A DNA stretch of 64,000 nt from Acidobacteriota bacterium. GTDB taxonomy: Bacteria; Acidobacteriota; Polarisedimenticolia; Gp22-AA2. Shown here in pieces: positions 22,903-53,988 of this stretch; position 1 is the first letter of the stretch; every line of letters starts with the position of its first letter. The stretch lies in assembly GCA_046758905.1 (NCBI GenBank), contig JBHIBC010000002.1:16648-80647 (forward strand). The letters run 5' to 3'. The position numbers and the translations under genes were made by a program. The notes below the pieces were generated by a model, which made no database searches, was not told where the DNA came from, and saw only the letters and a list, made by a program, of their open reading frames with translations.

Positions 22903-24211
22903 GATCCTCTCCCGGGCTCCGGCGCTCCGGGAGGCGACGGCCGGCGCCGGGCGGCACCAGCCCGGCCCGCAGCTCGGCCAGGGGGTAGAACGTGTCGCGC
23001 CACACCACGCCGCCGCGCGCCACCGTCCGGATCGCGGAGTTCCACGCCGCCACCAGCAGAAGGAGGATCGACATCGGCTGCGCGAGCGCCACGGCCGCGG
23101 GGCGAAAGCCCCCGTGCCTCGGTCCCTCGGAGGCCGCCGCGAAGGCGAGGCCGGTCTGCAGGACGAAGGGCATCCAGGCCGCGAGCAGGATGATCGGTCC
23201 GGCCGAACGGCCCCCCAGGACGCTCACCAGGATGCCGGAGAGCGCCGGGCCGTAAGCCGGCAGGGCGGAGGCGATCGTCCACAGCAGAAGGATCGGCAGG
23301 GAGAAGCCGAATCCGCCGAACAGGTTTTTCTCCAGGCCCCGGATCAGGCCGAGCGCTCCCCGGTGCCAGGCGCAGCGCACCAGGGAGAGGCCGCCGAACA
23401 GTCGCTGGCGGGCGCCCGACTCCTTCAGAAGACGGCCCAGCTTGAAGTCGTCCGCTAGGTCCATGCGGACCAGGTCGTGGCCCCCGATCCGATCGTAGGC
23501 GGTCCGGCGGATCAGATTGAACGCGCCGACCCCGGCCCCTCCTCTCGGCAGGTCGCGATCCATCTCGTGCGCCCGGGCGGCCAAGAGGTAGACCTGGCCG
23601 AACGCGGCCACCAGCCCGGCCTGGATCACCGGCATCGGGCCGAGGTCCGGGAGCACCGCCACGTGGTCGAGACCGGCGTCCTCGGCGTAGGCGACGACCC
23701 GCGCCAGCAGGTCGTCCTCCTCCAGGAGGACGTCGCCGTCGGTGAACAGGATCCAGTCGCCCCGCGCGCCGAGCGCGCCGACCTTGCAGGCGTGGCACTT
23801 GCCGATCCATCCGCGGGGGAGATCGCGCACGTGGATCACCGTCAGGCGGGAGTCGTCCCCCCCGGCCTCGGACCGGATCCGCTCGAGGATCGCCCCGGTA
23901 TCATCGCGCGAGCGGTCGTTCACCACGATGATCCGCAGGCCGGGATAGCGTTGCTCGAGCAGGCGGCGGACCGTCGCCTCGATGCGCCCGCCCTCGTCCC
24001 GAGCGGTCACCACCACGGAGAGGGAGGGCTGGGGCGAGGCGCCTCCGATCCGGCCGGGGGAGCGGCCCGGGCCCGGCCCGCCTCCGGGCGACAGGACCTC
24101 GGAGAGACGCCGCACCCTGCGCGCGCCGGCCAGGATCAGCAGCGCGATCGGAGCCCAGAGCGCGAGGCCGAGGAAGCCGGCGGCGAGCGGTCCGGCGACG
24201 GCGGGGCTCAA
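22889..24211 (-). CDS. family 2 glycosyltransferase, polytopic membrane protein
   Basis: LSVVVTARDEGGRIEATVRRLLEQRYPGLRIIVVNDRSRDDTGAIL (GT-A DxD region) flanked by multiple TM helices. TTG start at 24211 overlaps the stop of the upstream gene (cTTGAg). Confidence 0.7.
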   Translation of the reverse strand: MSPAVAGPLAAGFLGLALWAPIALLILAGARRVRRLSEVLSPGGGPGPGRSPGRIGGASPQPSLSVVVTARDEGGRIEATVRRLLEQRYPGLRIIVVNDRSRDDTGAILERIRSEAGGDDSRLTVIHVRDLPRGWIGKCHACKVGALGARGDWILFTDGDVLLEEDDLLARVVAYAEDAGLDHVAVLPDLGPMPVIQAGLVAAFGQVYLLAARAHEMDRDLPRGGAGVGAFNLIRRTAYDRIGGHDLVRMDLADDFKLGRLLKESGARQRLFGGLSLVRCAWHRGALGLIRGLEKNLFGGFGFSLPILLLWTIASALPAYGPALSGILVSVLGGRSAGPIILLAAWMPFVLQTGLAFAAASEGPRHGGFRPAAVALAQPMSILLLLVAAWNSAIRTVARGGVVWRDTFYPLAELRAGLVPPGAGRRLPERRSPGEDLSRS

Positions 24212-25122
24212 GAGGCGGCCGGGACGGCCATCACGGCGGAGCGCGCGATGTCCTCCTGTCTGATGCGGCTCGGGTCGAACGACTCGAGCGCGCGGAGGAG
24301 CCGGTCCAGGGCCTGATCGAAGCCGGGGATGGACTTGCGGGCCCGGGTGAGCGGGTTGCAGCGCGCGAGGACGAAGTTCTTGACGAACGGATGCCTGATG
24401 CCGCGTCGCTTCAGGGCGTCCACGACCTTCTTGAGCGCCGCGTCCGCCGCGGCCACCTTCGCGGCGCGCGCCTCGCGGGTGGCGTAGGAGGCCCTCAGCG
24501 GGGTCCTCAGAAACCTGTCCACCCTGCGCAGGATGGGCGAGAATGCGCCGCCGGCGAACCGGGCGTCTCTCTCGTACAGCAGCCCCAGCGTGATGAAGTA
24601 AGCCTCCTCGAACTGGAAGGCGAAGTCCTCCTCGCACTCCTTTCCGCCCCGCTCCATGAGCCCACGGTACATCCGGATCACCTCGAGCGATTTCTCCTTG
24701 AGGTTGTGGGCCTTCTCGGTGTTCAGGGCGAGGATCTGGAACGCAACGTCGGGCTCGGGCACGACGATGGCGGGGACCAGATCGGCCTTGAGCTTCTCCA
24801 GGACGTGGCGGCGGTGGTTGCCGTTCGGGGTCCAGTAGGACCCTTCCTGCCGCACGGCAACGACCGGATCGATGAACCGGCCGATCTTCTTGACCACCCT
24901 CAGGAGCCGTTCCGCGTGGCTCTTCGACAAGTCGCGCTGGTAAGGGGTCGGCCGGACCCGCTCGCGCGGCAGCAGGGCGAAGATCTGCCAGTGGCCGCCG
25001 ATCGGGTCCCGGTACAGAGCCAGCGCGTGACCTCCGTCCCGGTCGATCTCTCCGGCCAGGCGGACGACGTCGGCCGGGGGATCGACGTTCTCGGGGTGGA
25101 CCGCGAAGCGGAGACGCGCCAT
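24208..25122 (-). CDS. ParB/Srx-like N-terminal nuclease-domain protein
   Basis: YQRDLSKSHAERL and TPNGNHRRHVLEKL resemble ParB-N/sulfiredoxin-fold motifs. No HTH partition domain is evident. Confidence 0.5.
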   Translation of the reverse strand: MARLRFAVHPENVDPPADVVRLAGEIDRDGGHALALYRDPIGGHWQIFALLPRERVRPTPYQRDLSKSHAERLLRVVKKIGRFIDPVVAVRQEGSYWTPNGNHRRHVLEKLKADLVPAIVVPEPDVAFQILALNTEKAHNLKEKSLEVIRMYRGLMERGGKECEEDFAFQFEEAYFITLGLLYERDARFAGGAFSPILRRVDRFLRTPLRASYATREARAAKVAAADAALKKVVDALKRRGIRHPFVKNFVLARCNPLTRARKSIPGFDQALDRLLRALESFDPSRIRQEDIARSAVMAVPAAS

Positions 25123-25233
25123 GTGCTCGGGCCCCTCCGGGATCGAACCTTAGCAGCGAACGGGAACCGGGGGCAAGTGACCGGATGTCGGGTGAGATAG
25201 AATGACACTTCAGGCGGCGAGGGAGGAGGTCGC

Positions 25234-25902
25234 ATGCCCCTCAGCGTCAGGCTCCGGGAGCGGGCGGCGCCGATCTGGGAGCGGGAGCAGGCGCACCCGT
25301 TCGTCCGGGGGCTCGGGGACGGCACCCTCGAGCCCGACCGGTTCAGGGTGTGGCTGCGGCAGGACTACCTGTTCCTGATCGAGTACGCCAGGGTGCTGGC
25401 GATGGCGGCGGCGCGCGCGGAGGATCTCGAGACCCAGGCGCGCTTCTCGGACCTCCTGCAGGCGACGCTGCGCACCGAGATGGATCTACACCGGCGCTAC
25501 GCCCGCCGGTTCGGGATCTCCGAGGCCGATCTGGAGCGCACGGCTCCGGCGCCCACCACGCAGGCCTACACGGATTTCCTGGTCCGCGTAGCCCTGCAGG
25601 GACCGCTGGCCGCGATCGTGGCGTCCCTGCTTCCGTGCGCCTGGGGATACGCGGAGATCGCCCGACGGCTGGTGCGCCCCGGAGGCGCGCCGGAAGGCTC
25701 GCCCTACGCGGAGTGGATCCGTGCTTATTCCTCAAGGGAGTTCGGCGAGTACGCGGACTGGCTTAAGGACCTGCTCGACCGCCTGGCCGACGGGGCCCCC
25801 GATCGGGAGCAGGAGAGGCTGACGCGTATCTTCCTCACCTCGAGCCGATACGAGTATCTGTTCTGGGAGATGTGCCACTGCAAGTCTTCCTGGCCGGTCT
25901 GA
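25234..25902 (+). CDS. tenA: TenA/thiaminase II family (aminopyrimidine aminohydrolase)
   Basis: RBS GGGAGGAGG. HPFVRGLGDGTL, FRVWLRQDYLFLIEYAR and a catalytic Cys (LLPCAWGY). Confidence 0.8.
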   Translation: MPLSVRLRERAAPIWEREQAHPFVRGLGDGTLEPDRFRVWLRQDYLFLIEYARVLAMAAARAEDLETQARFSDLLQATLRTEMDLHRRYARRFGISEADLERTAPAPTTQAYTDFLVRVALQGPLAAIVASLLPCAWGYAEIARRLVRPGGAPEGSPYAEWIRAYSSREFGEYADWLKDLLDRLADGAPDREQERLTRIFLTSSRYEYLFWEMCHCKSSWPV

Positions 25903-25942
25903 GCCGCGGGAGGCCGCCGGCGGGACATCCGAGGAGGTCGTC

Positions 25943-26575
25943 ATGAGAAGCCGAATGCGTCGTGCGAGCCCGTTCCCGGCGGCGGTCGCCCTCTTCTTCG
26001 CCTCTCTGCTCGCGGTGCCGGCCGTCGCCGTCCCGGGCAGCGGCAAGATCCCGCGCAGCGGACCGCTTTACTTCTCGTCGGGCGCCATCGAGACCGTGCA
26101 GACCATCCTGAGGGACAACGGGTACCTGGAGCCGGAAGAGTACGCTCCGGGCACCATGGACCAGCCCACCATCGACGCGCTGCGCCGGTTTCAGCGCGAG
26201 CACTACCTGAAGTCGACCGGCCTGATCGACCCGGAGACGATGGGCCTGCTGACGACCCACGGGCTGTCGAGCGCGGCGGGAGCGCCGCCCTCGTCGCCTA
26301 AGGCCGAGCTGTCGGAGCGAGGGCTCGGGGAGCCGGAGGGCGAGGCGGTGGTGGAGGAGTCGGCCGACTGGGTCGAGGTGACGCGCGAGGACATGGAGGA
26401 GGAGTCCGTGGCCCTGGCGGCGACGGTGTCCGAGGAGGAGGCGTCCGGGTCGAGCGGCGCCGGGGAGTCGGAACGATGCAGGCCGCAGTCGGCGAGCCGC
26501 GAGCCCATGCGGGCGCTCCTAGGAGCGGCACTGCTCGCGATCGGGGCGGCCTGGCTTCTGCGCCGCCAGGGATGA
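25943..26575 (+). CDS. secreted peptidoglycan-binding (PG_binding_1) domain protein with C-terminal sorting-signal-like tail
   Basis: RBS GAGGAGG and signal peptide. QPTIDALRRFQREHYLKSTGLIDPETMG is a PG-binding domain. Acidic linker. The C-terminus SREP-MRALLGAALLAIGAAWLL-RRQG is a motif / TM / basic tail. Confidence 0.7.
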   Translation: MRSRMRRASPFPAAVALFFASLLAVPAVAVPGSGKIPRSGPLYFSSGAIETVQTILRDNGYLEPEEYAPGTMDQPTIDALRRFQREHYLKSTGLIDPETMGLLTTHGLSSAAGAPPSSPKAELSERGLGEPEGEAVVEESADWVEVTREDMEEESVALAATVSEEEASGSSGAGESERCRPQSASREPMRALLGAALLAIGAAWLLRRQG

Positions 26576-26576
26576 G

Positions 26577-27185
26577 ATGGGGGGAACCCGGCGTATGAGC
26601 TCCAGAGTCCGCCTGGGGCTGGGCGTGCTGTGCGTCGCGGCGGGCGTGGGGCTGCTGGCGCGTGCCGCGGCGATCCGCGCCGACGCGGCCGCCTGGCAGG
26701 CCCGGCACGCCGCCCGGCTCGCGCCGGCCGCGGCCCGCCTCGCGGCCCGGGAGGAGCCCGCTCGCCCTCCCGTCCCGGGGGAGCCGGTCGCCCGCCTGCG
26801 CATCCCCGGGGTGGGGCTCGACGTCGTGGTGGCGGAGGGCGTCGACCCGGCGACGCTGGCGCGGGCGCCGGGGCATATGCCGGGCAGCGCCCTGCCGGGG
26901 CAGCCCGACAACTGCATCATCGCCGGCCACCGGGACGGCCCCTTCGGCCGCCTGCACTCGGTGCGCGAGGGCGACTGGGTGATCCTGGAGGGTCCCGCCG
27001 CCCGGGGCCGCTACCGGGTCGTGTCGGTGGGGATCGTCGGCAGGGATGATCCGGAGCCCCTGGCCCGATCCGGGCGGCCGCTTCTGACCCTGATCACCTG
27101 CCACCCCCTCGGGTACCTGGGGCCGGCGCCGCAGCGGCTCGTCGTGAGGGGCGAGCTGGCCGCGGTGGAGGATGGCGGCGCCTGA
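26577..27185 (+). CDS. sortase family transpeptidase
   Basis: N-terminal TM anchor. Catalytic His region (CIIAGHRDGPF) and the TLITCHP (TLxTC) active-site Cys motif. Starts 1 nt after the upstream stop. Confidence 0.8.
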   Translation: MGGTRRMSSRVRLGLGVLCVAAGVGLLARAAAIRADAAAWQARHAARLAPAAARLAAREEPARPPVPGEPVARLRIPGVGLDVVVAEGVDPATLARAPGHMPGSALPGQPDNCIIAGHRDGPFGRLHSVREGDWVILEGPAARGRYRVVSVGIVGRDDPEPLARSGRPLLTLITCHPLGYLGPAPQRLVVRGELAAVEDGGA

Positions 27186-27554
27186 GGGCGCACCGGCCGC
27201 CCCGCGCGCCCCCCGCTCGTGCAGCGGGCGGCGCGGGCTCGGGGCGCTCCTGCCCTCAATGCGCCCGGGCCGGCGATAACCTTATCCGCACGGAGGGGCG
27301 TTCCTCCCTGCTCCTCGGCCCGCGGCGGCGGACGAGCAGCTTCGGATCGGCGTACCCCTTGGGGTACCAGAAGCCGGAACGGTCCCTCTGTCCAGGAGGC
27401 AGCACGGACTGGTCGTCGCCAGGCTCGACGATCTTGACGCGGAACGGCACGACGGTCCCCCGTCCCACTTGGGGTGGACGGTCGGTCTGTCTGGGTCCGA
27501 GCAGATTTCGGCTAAGCGGCCGTTATTTTACCCCAGCCGGCCGGATACGTTACC

Positions 27555-27600
27555 CGTCGATTTTCGAAAAAATCAGGTCCGGCGCGGCCTTTTCCGGGGC
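27555..27600. terminator. candidate bidirectional terminator (GC-rich hairpin flanked by A/T runs) in a convergent intergenic region
   Basis: cgattttcgaaaaaatcaggtccggcgcggccttttccggggcgcgccg: a GC hairpin with an A6 run upstream (T-run on the minus strand, after the pilin-like gene) and TTTT downstream. Confidence 0.3.
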
Positions 27601-27639
27601 GCGCCGCGGCGCGGGAGCGCCGCCGCACTCAGGGGCGGC

Positions 27640-28128
27640 CTAGCGCTGCGCCCCGGCCGGCCACTGGTAGAAGGCCCCGTTGGAGTAGATGATGTCGCAG
27701 GTGAATTCCCCGATCGGGCCGCCGGTGTTCGTCCCGGGCATCCCGTCCCTGCCGTAGCTGCTGATGGTGTACACGGTCCCGGTGGCATTGGTGTCGATGT
27801 GCCACGGATTGTCCCAGCCGTCGGTCAGGGGGACCTTCTGCAGGTAGAGAGGGGCGAGGTAGGCGCCGATCGTCTCCCCGTTGGCGTCGGTCAGGCCCCG
27901 GGGGTAGACGTTGTTGTCGGTGGCGTACATCTCGAGCCCCATGCCGATCGACTTCATGTCGGCCATGGTCGCCTTCTGCTTGGCGCGCTGGATCGCCTTC
28001 TGCAGGTTGGGCAGGGCCAGGGCGGCCAGGATCCCGATGATGGTCACCACGATGAGCAGCTCCACCAGCGTGAAGCCCGCCCCGGGGTCCGCCCTCCTCC
28101 CGCCTCGACCGGCCAGCACCGACGGCAT
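27640..28128 (-). CDS. prepilin-type N-terminal cleavage/methylation domain protein (pseudopilin-like)
   Basis: RBS AGGAGG. GFTLVELLIVVTIIGILAALALPNL is a class III signal peptide / N-methylation site. Confidence 0.75.
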   Translation of the reverse strand: MPSVLAGRGGRRADPGAGFTLVELLIVVTIIGILAALALPNLQKAIQRAKQKATMADMKSIGMGLEMYATDNNVYPRGLTDANGETIGAYLAPLYLQKVPLTDGWDNPWHIDTNATGTVYTISSYGRDGMPGTNTGGPIGEFTCDIIYSNGAFYQWPAGAQR

Positions 28129-47827: not shown

Positions 47828-48025
47828 GTGCCCGAGCGCATCGCCGTTCTCCACGACACCCTACGGGACCGGCGGCAACCGGCCGACGCCGGCACGAACC
47901 GCGACGATGAGGTGCCGGGTGCTCGGGAGATCCGCCTTGCGGCGGTCGGTGGTCCGGGGTGCGCGAGCGGCCCGGCGGGCGCCGCCCGGCCCTCGGAGTC
48001 GGATCGACAGATGAGCCTCGTGTAG
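47828..48025 (+). CDS. small ORF (65 aa) with strong SD (AAGGGAG, 5-nt spacer, GTG) in the leader of the giant gene
   Basis: VPERIAVLHDTLRDRRQPADAGTNRDDEVPGAREIRLAAV... No recognisable family. Could be a leader peptide or spurious. Confidence 0.22.
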   Translation: MPERIAVLHDTLRDRRQPADAGTNRDDEVPGAREIRLAAVGGPGCASGPAGAARPSESDRQMSLV

Positions 48026-48312
48026 CGCAGGCCGGTCCGGCCAGCCTGGCGGTCGCCGGACCGTGGCCCTGCGCTCTCGTTTTGTCCCGGCCCGGGGCCG
48101 CTCCTGCCGCCGGAGGGGGAGGTTCTTCGGGACCGGTTCCCGAAGGATCGCCGGCGGCAGCAGCGACCGCGGGCGCGGGAGCGTCGGATAGGGCCCTCCG
48201 GGACCCGGCGGCGCCGGGGACGGACCGGGGAGGACGGCCGCTCCTGCGGCCCGGCGCACGCCACCGAAGGTGGTTGACGCAGCGGCGCGGCAGTCGTAAG
48301 AGGTTGTCCGTG

Positions 48313-51300
48313 ATGCGCCACGACGCGCCGCCCCGGGCCCGCGCGCGCCCGGCCCTGCTGCTGCTAGCCGCGATCGCCGGAACCTCGCCCGCGACGGCAG
48401 CGGATGCGGGCCCCTTCCCGGAACTCATCGGTTACGTCTACGTCAACGAGGGGACCACCGATCGCTCCCGACTCGCCGCGCCGAACGTCGTCACGGGCCT
48501 CGCGGCGTTCTCGGACGGTTCGCTGGCGCTGCTTTCCGGCTCGCCCTGGCCGACCGGCGGGACGGGGCCCGAGGGGGCGGTCTTCCTGGGCTCCCCGCGG
48601 GCGGGGATCTGCGTCGCGCGGCGCCGTCTGTACGTCGTCAATCAGGGAAGCGACGACATCGCGGCCTTCACCATCGGGGAGCACGGCTCGCTGACGGCCG
48701 TCCCGGGATCTCCCTTCTTCTCGGGCGGATCGAGCCCCGAGGCGCTGGCGGTCACGCCGGACGGCCGGTTCCTGTACGTCGGTCACACGGGTAGCCGCGA
48801 CCTCGCCGTCCTGTCCGTGGCGCCCGACGGCGGGCTGATCCCCGCGTCGGCGCCGATCGACCTCGATTCGGCGGTCGACGGCCTGGCGGTGACCCCCGAC
48901 GGCCGCTTTCTGATCGCCACGCTGCCGCTTTTGGCGCGGATCGCCGTGCTGGCGATCGCCGACGACGGGAGCCTCGCGCACGTGCCCGGGTCGCCCTTCC
49001 GCGGCGACGGCGAGACCACCGACGGCGTGTCGCTCGGCGCGGGCGGCGCGGACCTCTTCGTGGCGGTCGCCGACCCGTCGCGGCTGCTCGTCAGCCGGTA
49101 CCGGCTGCGCCCCGACGGGGTCCTGATCCGGATCCCGGGATCGCCGTTCTCCGGCCCCGGCGGGACCGCGAACATCGTGCACACCGTCCCGGGTGACCGG
49201 TTCCTGACGGCGTCGCTGCCCGCCCAAAACGCCGTGGCGGTCTTCCTGGTCGATCCCTCCGGCGGCTTGGTGCCGGCGCCCGGTTCGCCCTTCCCGAACG
49301 GTCCGCTCGGCACGAGCCCGGCGGGCATGGCTTCGGACCCGCTCGGCCGTCTCCTTTACGTGGCCGACACCCTGAGCGGCACGGTCAGCTCCCTCCTGGT
49401 GCGCGAGGACGGCCGGCTCGATCTGGCGGGGGACAGCGTCCGCACCGGCGTCGACGGACTGCCTCTCGCGAGCATCGTCTTCCTGCCGGCCGGCGACCAG
49501 GACGGCGACTTGGTGCCGGCGTCCTCCGACAACTGCCCCGCGGTGGCCAACCCGTCCCAGATCGACCGCGACGGCGACGGGCTGGGCGATCCCTGCGACA
49601 ACTGCCCTGAGGTCGCGAACCGGGGGCAGCGGGACGCCGACCTCGACGGTGCCGGGGATCCCTGCGACCCGGACCGCGACGGAGACGGCGTGGACGACAG
49701 CGCGGATCCCTGTCCCGACGTCGCGGATCCCGAGGGGGGCGATACGGACGGCGACGGCGTGGGGGACGCCTGCGACAACTGCCCCGACGACCCGAACCCG
49801 GATCAGGGCGACGTCGACGCAGACCTCATCGGGGACGCCTGCGACCGGCCGGCCATCCGGATCGGCTGGCTCTACGTGCAGACCGAGTCGCCCGAGAACG
49901 CCATCGCCGCGTACGAGGTGGACCTCGAGGGCCGTCTGCGCCGCCTGAGCGGCTCGCCGTTCCCGACGGGCGGGCTGGGGCCTGAGGGCAGCGCGGTGGC
50001 CCTGTTCGCGCCGCCGCGGCTGGCGGCGGGCCGGTTCCTGCCGGCCAGGCTGTTCGCCGCGAACCAGGGGAGCGACGACGTCAGCGTGTTCCGGATCGAG
50101 CAGGACGGAACGCCCGTCCCGATCCAGGGGTCGCCGTTCGCGAGCGGGGGCCGGCTGCCGGCGGGCCTGGCCCTGCACCCGAGCGGGCTGTTCCTCGCCG
50201 TGGCCAACCTGGGATCGCCGAATGTCGCGCTGTTCAACGTGAAGCCGGACAACCTGCAGCTCAAGAAGATCGCCGGCACCCCGATCCCGGTTCCGGGGCG
50301 GGTGAACGGCCTGGCGTTTCATCCGCGCGGCCGATTCCTTGAGGTCGGCCTGCCCGATCTGGGACGGCTGCGGGCCATACGCTTCGAGTCGCCTTTCCCG
50401 TTCGTGCCCGGCTCGACGATCGTCGACCCCGCCGGAGCGCCCGCCGGCTTCGCGTTCAACGGCGCCGGGGACCGCCTGTTCCTGAGCAGCGCCACGAGCG
50501 GGACCGCCAAGGTCAGCGCGTTCGCGATCGACGTCGAGGGTGTCGCCGAGCCGCTGCCGCGCACCACGGCGACCGGCGGCGGCTCCAACTCCAACGCCGT
50601 CGCTTTGGGATCGGGCGAGAGGTTCCTGTACGTCTCCAATCAGGCGAGCAACACCATCGACGTCTTCGGGGTCGAGGCCTCGGGAAGCCTGGTCCCGCAC
50701 CCCGGGACGCCGTTCCCGAACGCCCGCTTCGGCAGGACCCCCGTGGGGCTGACGATCGATCCCCTAGGGCGGTTCCTGTTCGCGGCCAACACCGCGTCCA
50801 ACAGTGTCTCCTCGTTCCGCATCCGGCCGGACGGCGGGCTCGAGCCCCTAGGTGCGGCGGAGAAGACGGGGGCCGCCCTGGGGCGGCCGCTCGGGGGGAT
50901 CGTCTTCCTCGGCGCGGGTGACGAGGACGGGGACGGGGTCGAGTTCGCGCTCGACAACTGCCCGGGCGCGCACAACCCGGGCCAGGAGGATGCCGACGGC
51001 GACGCCGTGGGGGACGCGTGCGACCGCTGTCCGGATCTGTTCGACCCGGCCCAAGTCGACTCGGACGGAGACGGCGCGGGCAACGCCTGCGACCCCGACC
51101 CCGACGGCGACGGTCTCGAGGGCGGGGAGGACAACTGCCCCGCGGACAAAAACCCGGGCCAGGAGGAGCGTGACGGCGACGGGCTGGGGGACCTGTGCGA
51201 TCGGTGCCCGGACGATCCCGCAAACGACGGCGACGGCGACGGGTCCTGCGCCGGGATCGACAACTGTCCTTCCATCGCGAACCCGTTCCAGGAGGATCAG

Positions 51301-53988
51301 GACCGCGACGGCGTCGGCAACGCCTGTGACAACTGTCTCACCTTCTTCAATCCGGACCAGATCGATTCGGACGGGGACGGCACCGGGGACGCCTGCCAGA
51401 TCGGTTTCATGCGGAACGGCTTCCTTTTCGTGAACGGCCTGTCTCCGCTGAACCGGGTCGCAGCCTTCGAGACCAAGGAGGGCGGCGCCCTCCTTCCGCT
51501 CAGCGGCTCGCCCAGGCTGACGGGAGGCTCGGGGCGGCAGAACGATCCGCCGCCGTCGGCCGCCCCGGGGCTGGCGCTGTCGGGTGGGGCGCCGCTCCTG
51601 CTGGCCGTCAATCCCGACTCGGGCAGCGTCAGCACATTCGTCGTGGGCGGCGACGGGGCCCTCACCGCGGCGCCCGGCTCGCCGCACCCCGTGGCGCTCG
51701 TCGACCCCCTCGGCCTGGCGCTGGCCCCGGGCGGGGGGCGGTTGTTCGTGGCCGGGACGCGCGACGGCGGCGGGGCGATCGCGACCCTCGATGTCGCCCG
51801 CTCGGGACGCCTGAGGGCCGCGGGTGACCCGATCCCGATCGGAGGCGTCGCCGACGGGATGGCGATCGCTCCCGACGGGTCGCTCTTGGCCGTAGCGCTG
51901 CCGGATTCAGGGCGCGTCTCGGTCTTCTCGCTCGGCGCGGGGGACGCGGCACCGGCGCCGCTGAGCGGGTGGCCCGCCCGGCTGCCGGGCATCAACCGCC
52001 CGGGGCCGCTCGCGTTCGCCGCCGAGGCCGGGGCAGCCGGCGCCCCGGAGGGAGCCTGGGTCCTGGTGGGGGGCGAGGCACCGCCGGGGCGCGCGGTGCT
52101 GTGCGCGGTGGAGGTGCGCGACTCGGGGCCGGTGCCTCGCGGGCGGATCGATCTCGGCGCCGACGGCGGGACGCTGGCGATCGCCGTCGACGCTGCGCGT
52201 GACCGCTCCTTCGTCACCCTGCCCGCCGCCGGAGCGGTCGCCTGGGTGGAGGGCCTCCTCGCGGGCGTGCCGGTGAGCGTGCCGGGCTCCCCGTTCGCCG
52301 TCCCAGAGGCTCTGAGCGTGCCGGCGGGCCTGGTGCTCGGGTCGGACGGCGCCTCGGTGCACCTCGTCGGCCGCGGATCGAACTCGGTCGCGACGCTCGT
52401 GGAGGTGGAGGGAGCCGGACTGGCCGCGGGGCCGAACTCCCCCATCCCGACCGGCATCCAGGCGGCCAACCCCTCCGCCGGCGTGATCTTCCTGGAGTCG
52501 TCGGACGATGACGGGGACGGGCTCGAGCGACTGGAGGACAACTGCCCGGGGGTGGCCAATCCGGGACAGGAGGACTCGAACGGCGACGGCGCCGGAGACG
52601 CCTGCCAGCCGGTGGTCGCCATCGCCCGGGTGGTGTCCGCCGAGCGGGCCTCCCCAGCCGACGAGAGCGGGGCGGGCCGGGAGACGATCCCGGTGCTGGC
52701 GGCGGCGGTGTCGCTGTCCGACCCGGACGGGCAGACGCTGCACGGGCGCGTCGTCGTGTCGCGCCTCGAGATCGGATCCTTCACGCTCGAGGACGCGGCG
52801 CTGGAGGGGGAGGGAAGCGACGGGGTCGACTGTGGGCGGACGCTGCCGCTGGACGAAAGGGCCGGACCGGGGATCGCCTACCTGAACGCATCGGCGGGGC
52901 GGCCGCTGCTCGTCGACCAGGACTCGGTCCTGGCCTGCGACGACGGCCTGCAGGACTATGAGCTCGCGGCGGGCGGATGCGATGGCCAGGACCCGGTCTT
53001 CTTCCCGATCCTGGCGCTGTCCGGGCTCCCGCCGCCGGCGGAGATCTGCGCGCGCGAGCGCGACGGCGACGGGCGCCGCTTCGAAATCAGGGTCGAGGCC
53101 ATCCGCGCGGACAGCGCCGACATCGTCGCGGAGCGCGCCCTGGCGCGGACAGTCGTGCCGTACGGCGGATCCGTCCTGCCCGGCGCCATCTCCCTCGAGG
53201 CCCTAGGCGACGCTCCGGCCGGCCCCGCCGGCCTTCCCCACACCCTGACCGTCACGGCCGCCGACGGCGACACGCCCGAAGCCCGGGACAGCGCGGGCTT
53301 CGCCTGGCGCGGCGAGTCCCTGCTGGTGTTCGGATCGCCCCCGGTAGCGGTGGGCCCCGGAGATCTGCTGACGGAGTGCACGGGGCCGGAGGGCGCGACC
53401 CTGACGCTCGACGGCTCCGATTCCTTCGACCCCGACGGCGGCCCGCTCTCGCACCGCTGGCTCGAGGTGGTGGAGGAGGGCACGGAGCGATTCCTCGCCG
53501 AGGGCGAGCGCGTCCAGGTCTCCCTGTCGTTGGGCGCTCATCTTGTGGTGCACCTCGTGCAGGACTCGGACGGTCTGCTGGCCGAGCAGCGTTTCACCGT
53601 CACGGTCGCCGACCGGCTGCCTCCGGAGGCCACCGCCCGTGCCGTCCCGCCGGTGCTGTGGCCGCCCGACCACGCCCTAGTCCCGGTCCGCGTCGTGGTC
53701 GACGCCCGGGACGCCTGTTCCGGCACGGTGGAGATCCGGCTGCAGAGCGTGGCGAGCAGCGAGAGCGACGATGCTCCCGGGGCAGGGGACGGTCGGACCA
53801 GCGGCGACATCCGGGAGGCCGCTCTCGGGGAGGACGACCGCGATCTTCTGCTGCGCGCCGAGCGCTCCGCTCCGGGGCCGGGACGGACCTACCGCCTCGT
53901 CTACCGCGTCGCCGATCCCTCGGGCAACGCCGTGAGCGTCCGGATCGAGGTCGAGGTCCCCCTGTCCCGGCGCGAAGATGTCCCCTAG
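48313..53988 (+). CDS. giant secreted multi-propeller protein: repeated lactonase-type 7-bladed beta-propeller modules interleaved with thrombospondin type-3 (Ca-binding) repeat arrays
   Basis: ~1890 aa. Signal peptide (ALLLLAAIAGTSPATAADA). Recurrent propeller-like segments (FLYVGHTGSRDLAVLSV, LFVAVADPSRLLVSRY, LYVSNQASNTIDVF...). Three arrays of DxDxDGxGDxCDNCPxxxNPxQ TSP3 repeats. Confidence 0.85.
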   Translation: MRHDAPPRARARPALLLLAAIAGTSPATAADAGPFPELIGYVYVNEGTTDRSRLAAPNVVTGLAAFSDGSLALLSGSPWPTGGTGPEGAVFLGSPRAGICVARRRLYVVNQGSDDIAAFTIGEHGSLTAVPGSPFFSGGSSPEALAVTPDGRFLYVGHTGSRDLAVLSVAPDGGLIPASAPIDLDSAVDGLAVTPDGRFLIATLPLLARIAVLAIADDGSLAHVPGSPFRGDGETTDGVSLGAGGADLFVAVADPSRLLVSRYRLRPDGVLIRIPGSPFSGPGGTANIVHTVPGDRFLTASLPAQNAVAVFLVDPSGGLVPAPGSPFPNGPLGTSPAGMASDPLGRLLYVADTLSGTVSSLLVREDGRLDLAGDSVRTGVDGLPLASIVFLPAGDQDGDLVPASSDNCPAVANPSQIDRDGDGLGDPCDNCPEVANRGQRDADLDGAGDPCDPDRDGDGVDDSADPCPDVADPEGGDTDGDGVGDACDNCPDDPNPDQGDVDADLIGDACDRPAIRIGWLYVQTESPENAIAAYEVDLEGRLRRLSGSPFPTGGLGPEGSAVALFAPPRLAAGRFLPARLFAANQGSDDVSVFRIEQDGTPVPIQGSPFASGGRLPAGLALHPSGLFLAVANLGSPNVALFNVKPDNLQLKKIAGTPIPVPGRVNGLAFHPRGRFLEVGLPDLGRLRAIRFESPFPFVPGSTIVDPAGAPAGFAFNGAGDRLFLSSATSGTAKVSAFAIDVEGVAEPLPRTTATGGGSNSNAVALGSGERFLYVSNQASNTIDVFGVEASGSLVPHPGTPFPNARFGRTPVGLTIDPLGRFLFAANTASNSVSSFRIRPDGGLEPLGAAEKTGAALGRPLGGIVFLGAGDEDGDGVEFALDNCPGAHNPGQEDADGDAVGDACDRCPDLFDPAQVDSDGDGAGNACDPDPDGDGLEGGEDNCPADKNPGQEERDGDGLGDLCDRCPDDPANDGDGDGSCAGIDNCPSIANPFQEDQDRDGVGNACDNCLTFFNPDQIDSDGDGTGDACQIGFMRNGFLFVNGLSPLNRVAAFETKEGGALLPLSGSPRLTGGSGRQNDPPPSAAPGLALSGGAPLLLAVNPDSGSVSTFVVGGDGALTAAPGSPHPVALVDPLGLALAPGGGRLFVAGTRDGGGAIATLDVARSGRLRAAGDPIPIGGVADGMAIAPDGSLLAVALPDSGRVSVFSLGAGDAAPAPLSGWPARLPGINRPGPLAFAAEAGAAGAPEGAWVLVGGEAPPGRAVLCAVEVRDSGPVPRGRIDLGADGGTLAIAVDAARDRSFVTLPAAGAVAWVEGLLAGVPVSVPGSPFAVPEALSVPAGLVLGSDGASVHLVGRGSNSVATLVEVEGAGLAAGPNSPIPTGIQAANPSAGVIFLESSDDDGDGLERLEDNCPGVANPGQEDSNGDGAGDACQPVVAIARVVSAERASPADESGAGRETIPVLAAAVSLSDPDGQTLHGRVVVSRLEIGSFTLEDAALEGEGSDGVDCGRTLPLDERAGPGIAYLNASAGRPLLVDQDSVLACDDGLQDYELAAGGCDGQDPVFFPILALSGLPPPAEICARERDGDGRRFEIRVEAIRADSADIVAERALARTVVPYGGSVLPGAISLEALGDAPAGPAGLPHTLTVTAADGDTPEARDSAGFAWRGESLLVFGSPPVAVGPGDLLTECTGPEGATLTLDGSDSFDPDGGPLSHRWLEVVEEGTERFLAEGERVQVSLSLGAHLVVHLVQDSDGLLAEQRFTVTVADRLPPEATARAVPPVLWPPDHALVPVRVVVDARDACSGTVEIRLQSVASSESDDAPGAGDGRTSGDIREAALGEDDRDLLLRAERSAPGPGRTYRLVYRVADPSGNAVSVRIEVEVPLSRREDVP
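49510..49846 (+). repeat. TSP3-repeat array 1 (coding tandem repeats, gacaactgcccc... units)
   Basis: DNCPAVANPSQIDRDGDGLGDPCDNCPEVANRGQRDADLDGAGDPCDPDRDGDGVDD...DGDGVGDACDNCPDDPNPDQGDVDADLIGDACD. Confidence 0.8.
50918..51397 (+). repeat. TSP3-repeat array 2
   Basis: GDEDGDGVEFALDNCPGAHNPGQEDADGDAVGDACDRCPDLFDPAQVDSDGDGAGNACDPDPDGDGLEGGEDNCPADKNPGQEERDGDGLGDLCDRCPDD...DNCLTFFNPDQIDSDGDGTGDACQ. Confidence 0.8.
52501..52608 (+). repeat. TSP3-repeat array 3 (single unit)
   Basis: SDDDGDGLERLEDNCPGVANPGQEDSNGDGAGDACQ. Confidence 0.7.

What the first reader, a model, noticed from the sequence alone, without database searches (positions are those of the whole stretch)
25943..27185. Sortase directly downstream of a secreted peptidoglycan-binding protein whose C-terminal tail is tripartite but lacks LPXTG
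A sortase (TLITCHP catalytic motif, N-terminal anchor) starts 1 nt after a 210-aa secreted protein. That protein has a PG_binding_1 domain and an acidic linker. It ends ...CRPQSASREP-MRALLGAALLAIGAAWLL-RRQG: a short motif, a hydrophobic helix and a basic tail. This is the classic architecture of a sorting signal, but the motif is REP rather than LPXTG/LAXTG. This resembles the single-substrate dedicated-sortase dyads seen in some didermic bacteria, or alternatively a PEP-CTERM-like exosortase signal. Either way the recognition sequence differs from described motifs. Sortase substrates are usually adhesins, so a PG-binding cargo is also unusual.
Basis: partly seen in the sequence, partly recalled or inferred. 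Interest (0 to 1): 0.55.

Follow-up and report, generated by a model that had tools for sequence, protein, structure and literature searches.

The report
Acidobacterial sortase pair with mutated signal
This is one copy of a widespread but unstudied acidobacterial gene pair, a sortase plus a single peptidoglycan-binding cargo protein that normally ends in an MPxTG sorting signal; in this genome two point changes have turned that signal into RPQSA, so the cargo is probably no longer processed.

Summary
A 210-aa secreted PG_binding_1 protein (25943-26575) is followed directly by an intact sortase (26577/26595-27185), and the cargo tail has no LPXTG.

The pair is conserved in Acidobacteriota. In 52 distinct PG-binding cargo tails next to orthologous sortases, the tail reads R-x-[M/L]-P-x-T-[G/A]-S-x-x-P, then a hydrophobic helix, then RR. 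Met occurs in about 94% of them.

Both MAFFT and an HMM built without the window align the window tail to this signal without a gap. The matching motif is R180-P-Q-S-A184, not "REP". Arg at position 1 and Ser at position 4 occur in none of 83 related tails. Each is one nucleotide away from Met or Thr.

The sortase keeps His/Cys/Arg and folds confidently. It is nearest class D but falls below every NCBIfam class cut-off. No exosortase and no second substrate lie in the 64 kb.

Best reading: this is a dedicated diderm sortase-cargo pair, a Met variant of LPXTG/LPXTA, whose signal is crippled here. The cargo would then stay anchored in the inner membrane. Rivals are a retargeted sortase specificity or an error in the MAG consensus. 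The PEP-CTERM reading is rejected.

The parts
25943..26575 (+). Cargo gene: a 210-aa secreted PG_binding_1 protein with a C-terminal sorting-signal-like tail
   Evidence: ORF. Pfam PF01471 hit. It is identical to NCBI P0001, 'peptidoglycan-binding domain-containing protein [Acidobacteriota bacterium]'. GC3 is 0.90, typical of real genes in this window.
25943..26032 (+). Predicted Sec signal peptide (aa 1-30: MRSRMRRASPFPAAVALFFASLLAVPAVAV)
   Evidence: Read directly from the sequence: a basic n-region, a hydrophobic core and an AVA site. An equivalent N-terminus is present in all aligned orthologs. The cleavage site is inferred, not computed.
26081..26251 (+). PG_binding_1 domain (aa 47-103)
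   Evidence: Pfam PF01471, E 4.9e-9, 36.7 bits against a cut-off of 23. All invariant family residues are retained: Q53, L56, L62, G70, D73, T76, Q84, H87, G93, L103, H106.
26261..26473 (+). Acidic low-complexity linker (aa 107-177), containing the semi-conserved EEESVALAATVS element
   Evidence: 19 D/E against 3 K/R in 71 residues. The EE-x-[VA]-x-L-[AT]-A element is shared with L049, L052, L003, L015, L006, L137 and L138.
26480..26494 (+). Degenerate sortase motif R180-P-Q-S-A184 (AGG CCG CAG TCG GCG), the in-register counterpart of MPxT[GA]
   Evidence: P181 is invariant and R178 is nearly invariant in MAFFT alignments A2 and A3. The tail HMM aligns PQSASREPM to PaTGSplPL without a gap. Arg at position 1 and Ser at position 4 occur in 0 of 48 tails, and in 0 of 83 once searches are included. 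AGG/ATG and TCG/ACG each differ by one base.
26495..26512 (+). Spacer S185-REPMR190.
   Evidence: Orthologs have S-[SP]-x-P-[LV] here. The window has three charged residues instead.
26513..26572 (+). C-terminal hydrophobic helix (A191-L206), with invariant G194 and G201, followed by the basic tail RRQG
   Evidence: This is the only such tail among 526 stop-to-stop ORFs in the window.
26577..27185 (+). Sortase gene (202 aa from ATG 26577; 196 aa from NCBI's start at 26595)
   Evidence: Pfam PF04203, E 9e-26. NCBIfam best hits are SrtD at 99.8 (cut-off 140), class D at 93.9 (165), class GN at 82.5 (158) and class E at 76.7 (160). AF2 gives pLDDT 92 and pTM 0.87. The nearest solved structure is B. 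anthracis SrtD, 2LN7.
26613..26675 (+). N-terminal membrane anchor of the sortase (LGLGVLCVAAGVGLLARAAAI)
   Evidence: Hydropathy scan. AF2 models a long N-terminal helix, residues 3-50 of P0004. It aligns with the hydrophobic N-termini of 22 homologs.
26928..26930 (+). Catalytic His (H118; H112 in P0004 numbering), in the AGHRD motif
   Evidence: Invariant in 23 sequences. Codon checked.
27099..27101 (+). Catalytic Cys (C175; C169 in P0004), in TLITCHP
   Evidence: Invariant in 23 sequences. Codon checked.
27135..27137 (+). Catalytic Arg (R187; R181 in P0004), in APQRLVV
   Evidence: Invariant in 23 sequences. Codon checked.

Best explanation
The two genes are one copy of a conserved acidobacterial 'dedicated' sorting module: a membrane-anchored sortase and the single cargo encoded just upstream.

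How the family is expected to work (inferred by analogy with class D/A sortases):
1. The cargo is exported by its signal peptide.
2. It is held in the inner membrane by its C-terminal helix and Arg-rich tail.
3. The sortase Cys cuts it after the Thr of R-x-MPxT|[G/A].
4. The Thr carboxyl is transferred to an amine in the envelope, most plausibly the meso-diaminopimelate of lipid II or peptidoglycan. This covalently fixes a peptidoglycan-binding domain, on an acidic spacer, to the sacculus.

In this genome the signal is homologous and in register, but two single-base changes (ATG to AGG, ACG to TCG) have replaced the two most constrained residues, giving RPQSA. The adjoining spacer has also become charged. 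The most likely consequence is that cleavage is lost or strongly reduced. The PG-binding protein would then stay tethered to the inner membrane by its retained helix, next to a still intact sortase.

Shown here: the homology, the register, the uniqueness of the substitutions and the integrity of the sortase. Inferred: the cleavage site, the acceptor and the loss of processing.
For: Orthology:
- The gene order GT2 / conserved 304-aa protein / cargo / sortase / convergent GspG-like pilin / PALP enzyme is shared with L049, L052, L051, L136 and L138.
- The order TenA-cargo-sortase is shared with L137.
- Across more distant loci only the cargo-sortase pair stays together.

Family signal:
- In 48 distinct tails, position 1 is M 45 / L 3, position 2 is P 48, position 4 is T 48, position 5 is G 39 / A 9, position -2 is R 33 and position +1 is S 38.
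- Four more near relatives are all canonical.
- 18 Bryobacterales-type tails read MPxT and 13 wider relatives read [LM]PxTAS.
- Isolated ortholog tails pass TIGR01167 LPXTG_anchor (16.7 and 19.8 against a cut-off of 15.9). The window tail gives no hit.

Register:
- MAFFT alignments A2 and A3 have P181, G194 and G201 invariant.
- An HMM built without the window aligns its tail ungapped at 24.2 bits.

Sortase integrity:
- His, Cys and Arg are invariant. The AF2 model has pLDDT 92. The best solved matches are sortases of classes D and E.

Expected effect of the substitutions:
- Accepting Ser at position 4 (LPXSG) required directed evolution of S. aureus SrtA into an orthogonal variant (Dorr et al., as described in PMC9060782).

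Analogy for the acceptor:
- Class D SrtC of B. anthracis joins LPNTA cargos to diaminopimelate cross-bridges (PMC8225981).
Against: - No experiment exists for any member of this family. The cleavage site, the acceptor and even the catalytic activity are inferred.
- Specificity rules come from Firmicute sortases and may not transfer.
- The window sortase departs from the family consensus at five positions. These include P158R in the loop before TLITC and Y170H next to the catalytic Cys. That could signal co-adaptation to the new motif, not decay of the signal.
- The cargo gene is otherwise intact and the sortase is well conserved. That is not what a simple loss-of-function story predicts for the enzyme, unless it has another substrate outside the 64 kb seen here.
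- The sequence is a single MAG consensus (1 member, 1 contig).
Confidence: 0.6

Rival explanations
1. Retargeted specificity. The sortase of this lineage has co-evolved with its only cargo and now recognises RPQSA, cutting after Ser. The pair would then be fully functional with a new recognition sequence.
For: In a one-enzyme, one-substrate pair, the motif and the binding groove are free to drift together. The window sortase carries unusual residues at otherwise conserved positions: R72G, T83V, P158R (in the loop preceding TLITC, the region that sets specificity in S. aureus SrtA by my own knowledge), Y170H and F172L. Both genes are intact, with coding-type GC3 of 0.90 and 0.94. Position 5 (A) and +1 (S), the -2 Arg and the +4 Pro are all retained.
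Against: There is only one such sequence, so covariation cannot be tested. His at position 170 also occurs in P0052, which has a canonical MPETG. Arg for Met/Leu is a drastic change at a position filled by a hydrophobic residue in 83 of 83 relatives. The nearest gene-order analogue, L137, is canonical.
Confidence: 0.2
2. Sequence artefact. The organism really encodes MPQTA, and the two deviant bases are errors or a minority or chimeric strain variant fixed in the MAG consensus.
For: The protein is known from one contig of one MAG only. Each deviation is a single base. Every other member of the family is canonical.
Against: Two independent substitutions within 12 nt that both hit the key residues are unlikely as random error. 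The neighbouring spacer is also diverged at the protein level (SREPMR against S-P-x-P-L-x), which points to real evolutionary divergence of this stretch. There is no frameshift or stop anywhere in either gene.
Confidence: 0.13
3. An exosortase/PEP-CTERM-like or other non-sortase C-terminal sorting signal (motif 'REP'), with the sortase adjacency incidental.
For: Only the superficial tripartite shape and a Pro-containing tripeptide before the helix. There is a weak, sub-threshold hit of the helix part to NF058571 GVDTG_CTERM (13.6 against 29).
Against: The tail aligns in register with MPxT[GA] signals. The cargo-sortase adjacency is conserved in more than 50 loci even where all other neighbours change. 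No PEP-CTERM model hit was found. The multi-TM proteins of the window are MatE, CLC, a Na/H exchanger, CydA, CydB and an M50 peptidase, with no exosortase among them. No other ORF in the window has such a tail.
Confidence: 0.02
4. An in-frame deletion of about 8 codons removed MPxTGxxx, so that 'SRE|PM...' joins the pre-motif Arg region directly to the helix.
For: This was my first impression from comparing the window with L007 (SREMPATGGRVPLVAG...). The window tail after 'SRE' is 8 residues shorter.
Against: The ungapped alignment is preferred both by MAFFT and by an HMM built without the window. It conserves R178, P181, A184, S185, P188, G194, G201 and the distance to the C-terminus.
Confidence: 0.03

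Closest known systems
Class D sortases of Bacillus/Clostridium (B. anthracis SrtC/SrtD, PDB 2LN7; B. subtilis YhcS; C. perfringens SrtD, 4D70), with LPxTA-type cargos joined to diaminopimelate
   Same: It is the best NCBIfam and PDB sequence match and the top Foldseek match. NCBI's pipeline names the window protein and P0015 'class D sortase'. Both are small enzymes with an N-terminal anchor. Both have few cargos encoded nearby. Ala is accepted at motif position 5. A diaminopimelate-type wall is the expected acceptor (PMC8225981).
   Different: Scores are far below the class D cut-offs (93.9 against 165; 99.8 against 140). The host is a diderm acidobacterium, not a sporulating Firmicute. The motif starts with Met, not Leu. 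The cargo is a PG_binding_1 protein.
Class GN ('marine', subfamily 6) sortase TIGR03784 with its adjacent single vWA/vault-like target in Shewanella, Colwellia, Bradyrhizobium and others (Comfort and Clubb 2004; Haft 2011)
   Same: Both share the concept of a dedicated sortase in a Gram-negative bacterium, encoded next to its only LPXTG-class target (PMC3237569; PMC8225981). Both are functionally uncharacterised.
   Different: The HMM score of 82.5 is below the 158.25 cut-off and lower than the class D score. The cargo family is different (PG_binding_1, about 180-240 aa, against large vWA proteins). The phylum and the motif (MPxT[GA]) are different.
Canonical LPXTG cell-wall sorting signal (TIGR01167 / PF00746)
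   Same: Ortholog tails share the tripartite layout of motif, helix and basic tail, and pass TIGR01167 when scored alone. JGI annotates several of them as LPXTG-motif proteins.
   Different: Position 1 is Met in about 94% of the family. The window tail (RPQSA) gives no hit to TIGR01167 at E up to 10.
PEP-CTERM/exosortase and other Haft-type C-terminal sorting domains
   Same: Only the generic tripartite architecture (PMC3237569).
   Different: There is no PEP motif in register, no model hit and no exosortase in the window. The partner enzyme is a sortase.

Membership tests
Sortase superfamily (Pfam PF04203, peptidase C60) | Sortase domain match above the curated cut-off | tested here: met
   90.5 bits against 26.6, E 9e-26, covering profile positions 1-124 of 125. 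TIGR01076 sortase_fam scores 59 against 39.35.
Sortase superfamily (Pfam PF04203, peptidase C60) | Catalytic His, Cys (TLxTC) and Arg all present | tested here: met
   H118, C175 and R187 are invariant in a 23-sequence alignment.
Sortase superfamily (Pfam PF04203, peptidase C60) | Eight-stranded beta-barrel fold with an N-terminal membrane anchor | tested here: met
   AF2 gives pLDDT 92 and pTM 0.87, with helix 3-50 followed by the barrel. 138 PDB matches have E<=0.001, and all of the top 50 shown are sortases.
Sortase superfamily (Pfam PF04203, peptidase C60) | Transpeptidase activity on its cargo | not testable with these tools
   Needs biochemistry.
Class D sortase (NF033746 / NF058671) | HMM score at or above the curated class cut-off | tested here: not met
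   93.9 against 165, and 99.8 against 140. It is still the best-scoring class and the nearest solved structure is 2LN7.
Class D sortase (NF033746 / NF058671) | Cargo motif LPxTA(TN) | tested here: not met
   Family cargos have MPxT[G 39 / A 9]. The window has RPQSA.
Class GN sortase (TIGR03784) dedicated system | HMM score at or above the cut-off | tested here: not met
   82.5 against 158.25.
Class GN sortase (TIGR03784) dedicated system | Adjacent vWA/vault-type target protein | tested here: not met
   The adjacent cargo is a PG_binding_1 protein with no vWA hit.
LPXTG-class sorting signal (TIGR01167) | C-terminal [L]PxTG motif, hydrophobic helix and basic tail recognised by the model | tested here: not met
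   The window tail gives no hit at E<=10. Ortholog tails score 16.7 and 19.8 against 15.9. The helix and basic tail are present in the window, but the motif is RPQSA.
Dedicated sorting system in Haft's sense (one enzyme, one adjacent target) | Enzyme and target encoded by adjacent genes | tested here: met
   The gap is 1 nt, or 19 nt with NCBI's start. The same adjacency is seen in more than 50 loci.
Dedicated sorting system in Haft's sense (one enzyme, one adjacent target) | Only one target in the genome | tested here: inconclusive
   No other such tail lies in the 64-kb window. The rest of the genome is not available.
PEP-CTERM / exosortase system | PEP motif in a TIGR02595-type tail, plus an EpsH-family exosortase | tested here: not met
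   No PEP-CTERM model hit for the tail. The multi-TM ORFs of the window are other families. Only 64 kb was examined.
PG_binding_1 (PF01471) proteins | Domain match above the cut-off | tested here: met
   36.7 bits against 23. Actual peptidoglycan binding is not testable here.

The most novel reading that the evidence does not exclude
A whole, so far undescribed class of diderm sortase systems exists in Acidobacteriota. It uses a Met-type signal (MPxT[G/A], and MPHT[D/S/A]AGW in Bryobacterales) to attach one small periplasmic protein covalently to the sacculus or to an envelope partner. In Polarisedimenticolia-like lineages that protein is a peptidoglycan-binding domain on an acidic spacer, which would create a covalent plus non-covalent peptidoglycan 'staple' or envelope tether. 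Within this class, the window would show a natural reprogramming of sortase specificity to RPxSA, with compensating changes next to the active site (P158R, Y170H).
Probability: 0.2. Interest if true: 0.7.

Novelty: new variant of a known kind. Interest (0 to 1): 0.42.

Why it matters
Sortases in Gram-negative bacteria have been known from genomes for 20 years, but none has an established function (PMC8225981).

This family offers a simple case to test:
- One enzyme and one small cargo.
- A sharply defined signal, R-x-MPxT[G/A].
- A cargo whose domain already points to peptidoglycan.
- A sister clade in the Bryobacterales/Solibacter group that could be looked for in cultured strains.

Covalent fixing of a PG-binding module to the wall would be a new way of organising a diderm envelope.

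The window copy matters less on its own. It is a natural mutant of the signal, useful as a negative control or as a pointer to specificity determinants, provided it is not a consensus error.

For annotation, LPXTG detectors that require Leu will miss most of this family. The label 'class D sortase' is also assigned to proteins that score below the NCBIfam class models tested here.

Tried and rejected
1. Hidden LPXTG through a frameshift. Translating the three forward frames of 26300-26700 shows none.

2. An 8-codon in-frame deletion of the motif. This was my first reading. The ungapped MAFFT and HMM alignments reject it.

3. A second substrate or an exosortase in the window.
- A regex and hydropathy scan of 526 ORFs found only this tail.
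- Pfam on all ORFs with 4 or more predicted TM segments gave MatE, CLC, a Na/H exchanger, CydA/CydB and an M50 peptidase.

4. Class assignment by structure. Foldseek puts classes D, E, C, F and A all at E of about 1e-13 to 1e-11, so the fold does not discriminate.

5. Docking test with the natural cargo-sortase fusion P0052. AF2 leaves MPETG (117-121) in a stretch with pLDDT below 50, and pTM is 0.56, so the test is uninformative.

6. Promoter and terminator scan of 25100-27700. No promoter-like sites were found, and no terminator-like site lies between the two genes.

7. Literature.
- No paper contains 'MPXTG'.
- Searches for sortase with Acidobacteria, Solibacter or diderm gave only a COG count of 6 sortase genes in Solibacter usitatus.
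- One search failed on syntax.

8. Covariation between sortase residues and the motif could not be tested, because the RPQSA state occurs only once.
Full report
**1. What is in the sequence.**
The window is 70-75% G+C. Its proteins are identical to entries from an Acidobacteriota MAG.

- At 25943-26575 (+) lies a 210-aa ORF. At 26577-27185 (+) lies a 202-aa ORF.
- The first ORF ends in TGA at 26573-26575. An ATG follows at 26577.
- NCBI's model of the second gene starts six codons later, at 26595 (P0004, 196 aa). That ATG follows a GGGGGA stretch. Both starts are in the same frame.
- Protein 1 has a PG_binding_1 domain at aa 47-103 (36.7 bits against a cut-off of 23). Protein 2 has a full-length sortase domain (90.5 bits against 26.6).
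- Protein 1 also has a basic and hydrophobic N-terminus typical of a signal peptide. Its linker is very acidic, with 19 D/E against 3 K/R in 71 residues.
- Its tail reads ...ERCRPQSASREPMRALLGAALLAIGAAWLLRRQG.
- No [LM]PxT[GA] is present in any of the three forward frames.

**2. The sortase is intact but does not fit a curated class.**
- Its best NCBIfam scores are the LPxTATN-specific SrtD model (99.8 against a cut-off of 140), class D (93.9 against 165), class GN (82.5 against 158), class E (76.7 against 160) and class C (59 against 160).
- In an alignment of 23 homologs, the catalytic His (AGHRD), Cys (TLITC) and Arg (APxRL) are invariant and present in the window.
- An AlphaFold model is confident (pLDDT 92, pTM 0.87). 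It shows a long N-terminal helix followed by the sortase barrel.
- The nearest solved sequence and structure is B. anthracis class D SrtD, 2LN7. Foldseek scores for classes D, E, C, F and A are nearly the same, so the fold does not settle the class.
- It is not a pseudogene.

**3. The pair is a conserved module.**
A scan of one genome per species found 48 loci. For the 37 acidobacterial ones, I read the ORF that ends just before the sortase.

- In the Polarisedimenticolia-like group the upstream gene is always a signal-peptide + PG_binding_1 + linker protein.
- In Bryobacterales and Solibacteraceae it is a different protein of about 250-350 aa. That protein has a conserved N-terminal domain without a significant Pfam match and a T/Q/P-rich linker.
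- Closer relatives share the window's wider gene order: GT2, a conserved 304-aa protein, cargo, sortase, a convergent GspG-like pilin and a PALP enzyme.
- L137 even shares the TenA gene immediately upstream.
- In more distant loci only the cargo-sortase pair persists. The pair is therefore the functional unit.

This matches Haft's notion of a dedicated sorting system, as already described for the Gram-negative sortase TIGR03784 and its adjacent target (PMC3237569).

**4. The family's sorting signal.**
I pooled tails from genome loci, metagenome loci, look-ups of near relatives and a profile search with the cargo alignment.

| Position | Residues in 48 distinct PG-binding-type tails |
|---|---|
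| -2 | Arg 33 |
| 1 | Met 45 / Leu 3 |
| 2 | Pro 48 |
| 3 | variable |
| 4 | Thr 48 |
| 5 | Gly 39 / Ala 9 |
| +1 | Ser 38 |

- The motif is followed by a hydrophobic helix and an Arg-rich end.
- Four further near relatives read MPQTGG, MPATGS, MPTTGS and MPRTGS.
- Eighteen Bryobacterales-type tails read MPxT[D/S/A][A/S/G], mostly followed by GW.
- Thirteen more distant sortase neighbours read mostly LP[KR]TAS.
- Cut out alone, two ortholog tails pass the LPXTG_anchor model TIGR01167 (16.7 and 19.8 against 15.9).
- JGI labels several of these cargos 'LPXTG-motif cell wall-anchored protein'.

The family signal is therefore an LPXTG/LPXTA-class signal with Met at position 1. I found no paper that uses the term MPXTG and none that describes acidobacterial sortase systems beyond a gene count.

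**5. Where the window's motif really is.**
My first comparison suggested an 8-residue deletion (SRE|PM... against SREMPATGGRVPL...). That reading is wrong.

- MAFFT aligns the window tail to 14-16 orthologs without any gap. P181, G194 and G201 are invariant, and R178 is nearly so.
- An HMM built from 46 ortholog tails, with the window left out, aligns model P-a-T-G-S-p-l-P-L-l-a-l-l-G to window P181-Q-S-A-S-R-E-P-M-R-A-L-L-G. The alignment is ungapped and scores 24.2 bits.
- The homologous motif is therefore R180-P-Q-S-A184. Compare MPQTAS in L005.
- Arg at position 1 and Ser at position 4 occur in none of the 83 related tails.
- The codons AGG and TCG are each one base away from ATG and ACG.
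- The spacer has also acquired three charged residues, while the helix and the RR tail are retained.

**6. Mechanism.**

Shown:
- Homology of the signal.
- Adjacency and conservation of the pair.
- An intact catalytic triad.
- Membrane anchors on both proteins.

Inferred from established sortase biochemistry (class A and class D; PMC3237569; PMC8225981):
- The cargo is exported and parked in the inner membrane by its C-terminal helix.
- The sortase Cys attacks the Thr carbonyl of MPxT|G/A.
- The acyl-enzyme is resolved by an envelope amine, most plausibly meso-diaminopimelate of lipid II, as for B. anthracis SrtC.
- This leaves the PG-binding domain covalently bound to the wall through an acidic spacer.

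What that achieves (a wall staple, a spacer or a recruitment platform) is unknown.

For the window copy, I judge that replacing both key residues most likely abolishes or strongly weakens processing. In S. aureus SrtA, use of LPXSG required directed evolution of an orthogonal enzyme (PMC9060782). The cargo would then remain an inner-membrane-tethered PG-binding protein.

**7. Rivals.**
- (a) Co-evolved specificity. The window sortase is unusual at R72G, T83V, P158R, Y170H and F172L. P158R lies in the loop preceding TLITC, and Y170H abuts the Cys. With a single example, covariation cannot be tested. P0052 has His170 with a canonical MPETG.
- (b) MAG consensus error. The protein is known from one contig only. 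However, the flanking spacer is diverged too, and there are no frameshifts.
- (c) PEP-CTERM/exosortase. Rejected on register, on conserved sortase adjacency, on the lack of a model hit and on the lack of an exosortase among the window's multi-TM proteins.

**8. Comparison with known systems, and novelty.**
- It works like the dedicated Gram-negative sortase pairs and like class D sortases.
- It fails the curated membership cut-offs of both sortase classes.
- Its cargo family and its Met-type motif are not described in the literature I could search.
- I therefore rate the family as a new variant of a known kind. The window copy is a singular, probably degenerate, member.
- Interest is moderate. 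The family gives a clean handle on the open question of what sortases do in diderms.

Noticed in passing
L135:601-1434 (protein P0052, ENA contig of 1519 nt): A natural in-frame fusion of signal peptide, PG_binding_1, MPETG and the sortase catalytic domain. Both the cargo's C-terminal helix and the sortase's N-terminal anchor are missing. It is a singleton, so it may be a real soluble self-processing variant or an assembly artefact.
   Followed up: partly
L017-L037 (e.g. L037:3063-3803, L019:3139-3924): Bryobacterales and Solibacteraceae sortase homologs have a different dedicated cargo. It has a conserved N-terminal domain of about 110 aa (…LPYxVTIGDKTLQPGxYxIQQL…DYYFDKIWIQGKDYGYEFPLP), a T/Q/P-rich linker and a tail ending MPHT[D/S/A]AGW-helix-RRKR. 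Pfam gives only sub-threshold DUF2911 hits (E 0.009-0.13).
   Followed up: partly
window 24208-25122 (-): A 304-aa protein with no Pfam or NCBIfam hit. It is 73-80% identical across syntenic loci (L003, L015, L049-L054), far more conserved than the sortase or the cargo. It always lies between the GT2 gene and the dyad.
   Followed up: no
window 27640-28128 (-): A lone GspG-like, prepilin-type protein (N_methyl + T2SSG). It is convergent with the sortase and conserved in that position in the closer relatives (61-76% identity). No other T2SS or T4P genes are adjacent.
   Followed up: no
window 25234-25902 (+): A TenA thiaminase II gene sits directly upstream of the cargo here and in L137. L052, L053 and L054 carry a BON-domain gene on the opposite strand at that place. 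This is a small lineage-specific rearrangement next to the dyad.
   Followed up: partly
window 26360-26440; also L049, L052, L003, L015, L006, L137, L138: Within the otherwise variable linker of the cargo, a short element EE-x-[VA]-x-L-[AT]-A-[RAST]-x-[TS]-V recurs about 25-40 residues before the motif (EEESVALAATVS in the window). Its meaning is unknown.
   Followed up: no
L054:1520-2056 (P0002) and P0003: The closest cargo homologs by domain identity (51-55%) have LPETG (P0002) but no hydrophobic helix after it, ending ...LPETGSVHATRTGSERPLVETRAGS*. P0003 stops even earlier. These may be other decayed signals, or frameshifts near contig ends.
   Followed up: partly
window 47959-53988 (+): A 2009-aa protein with thrombospondin type 3 repeats and several lactonase/SGL-type beta-propeller regions.
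   Followed up: no
(P0004, P0015): NCBI names these proteins 'class D sortase', although they score well below the cut-offs of the NCBIfam class D models in release 20.0. The name presumably comes from another rule.
   Followed up: no
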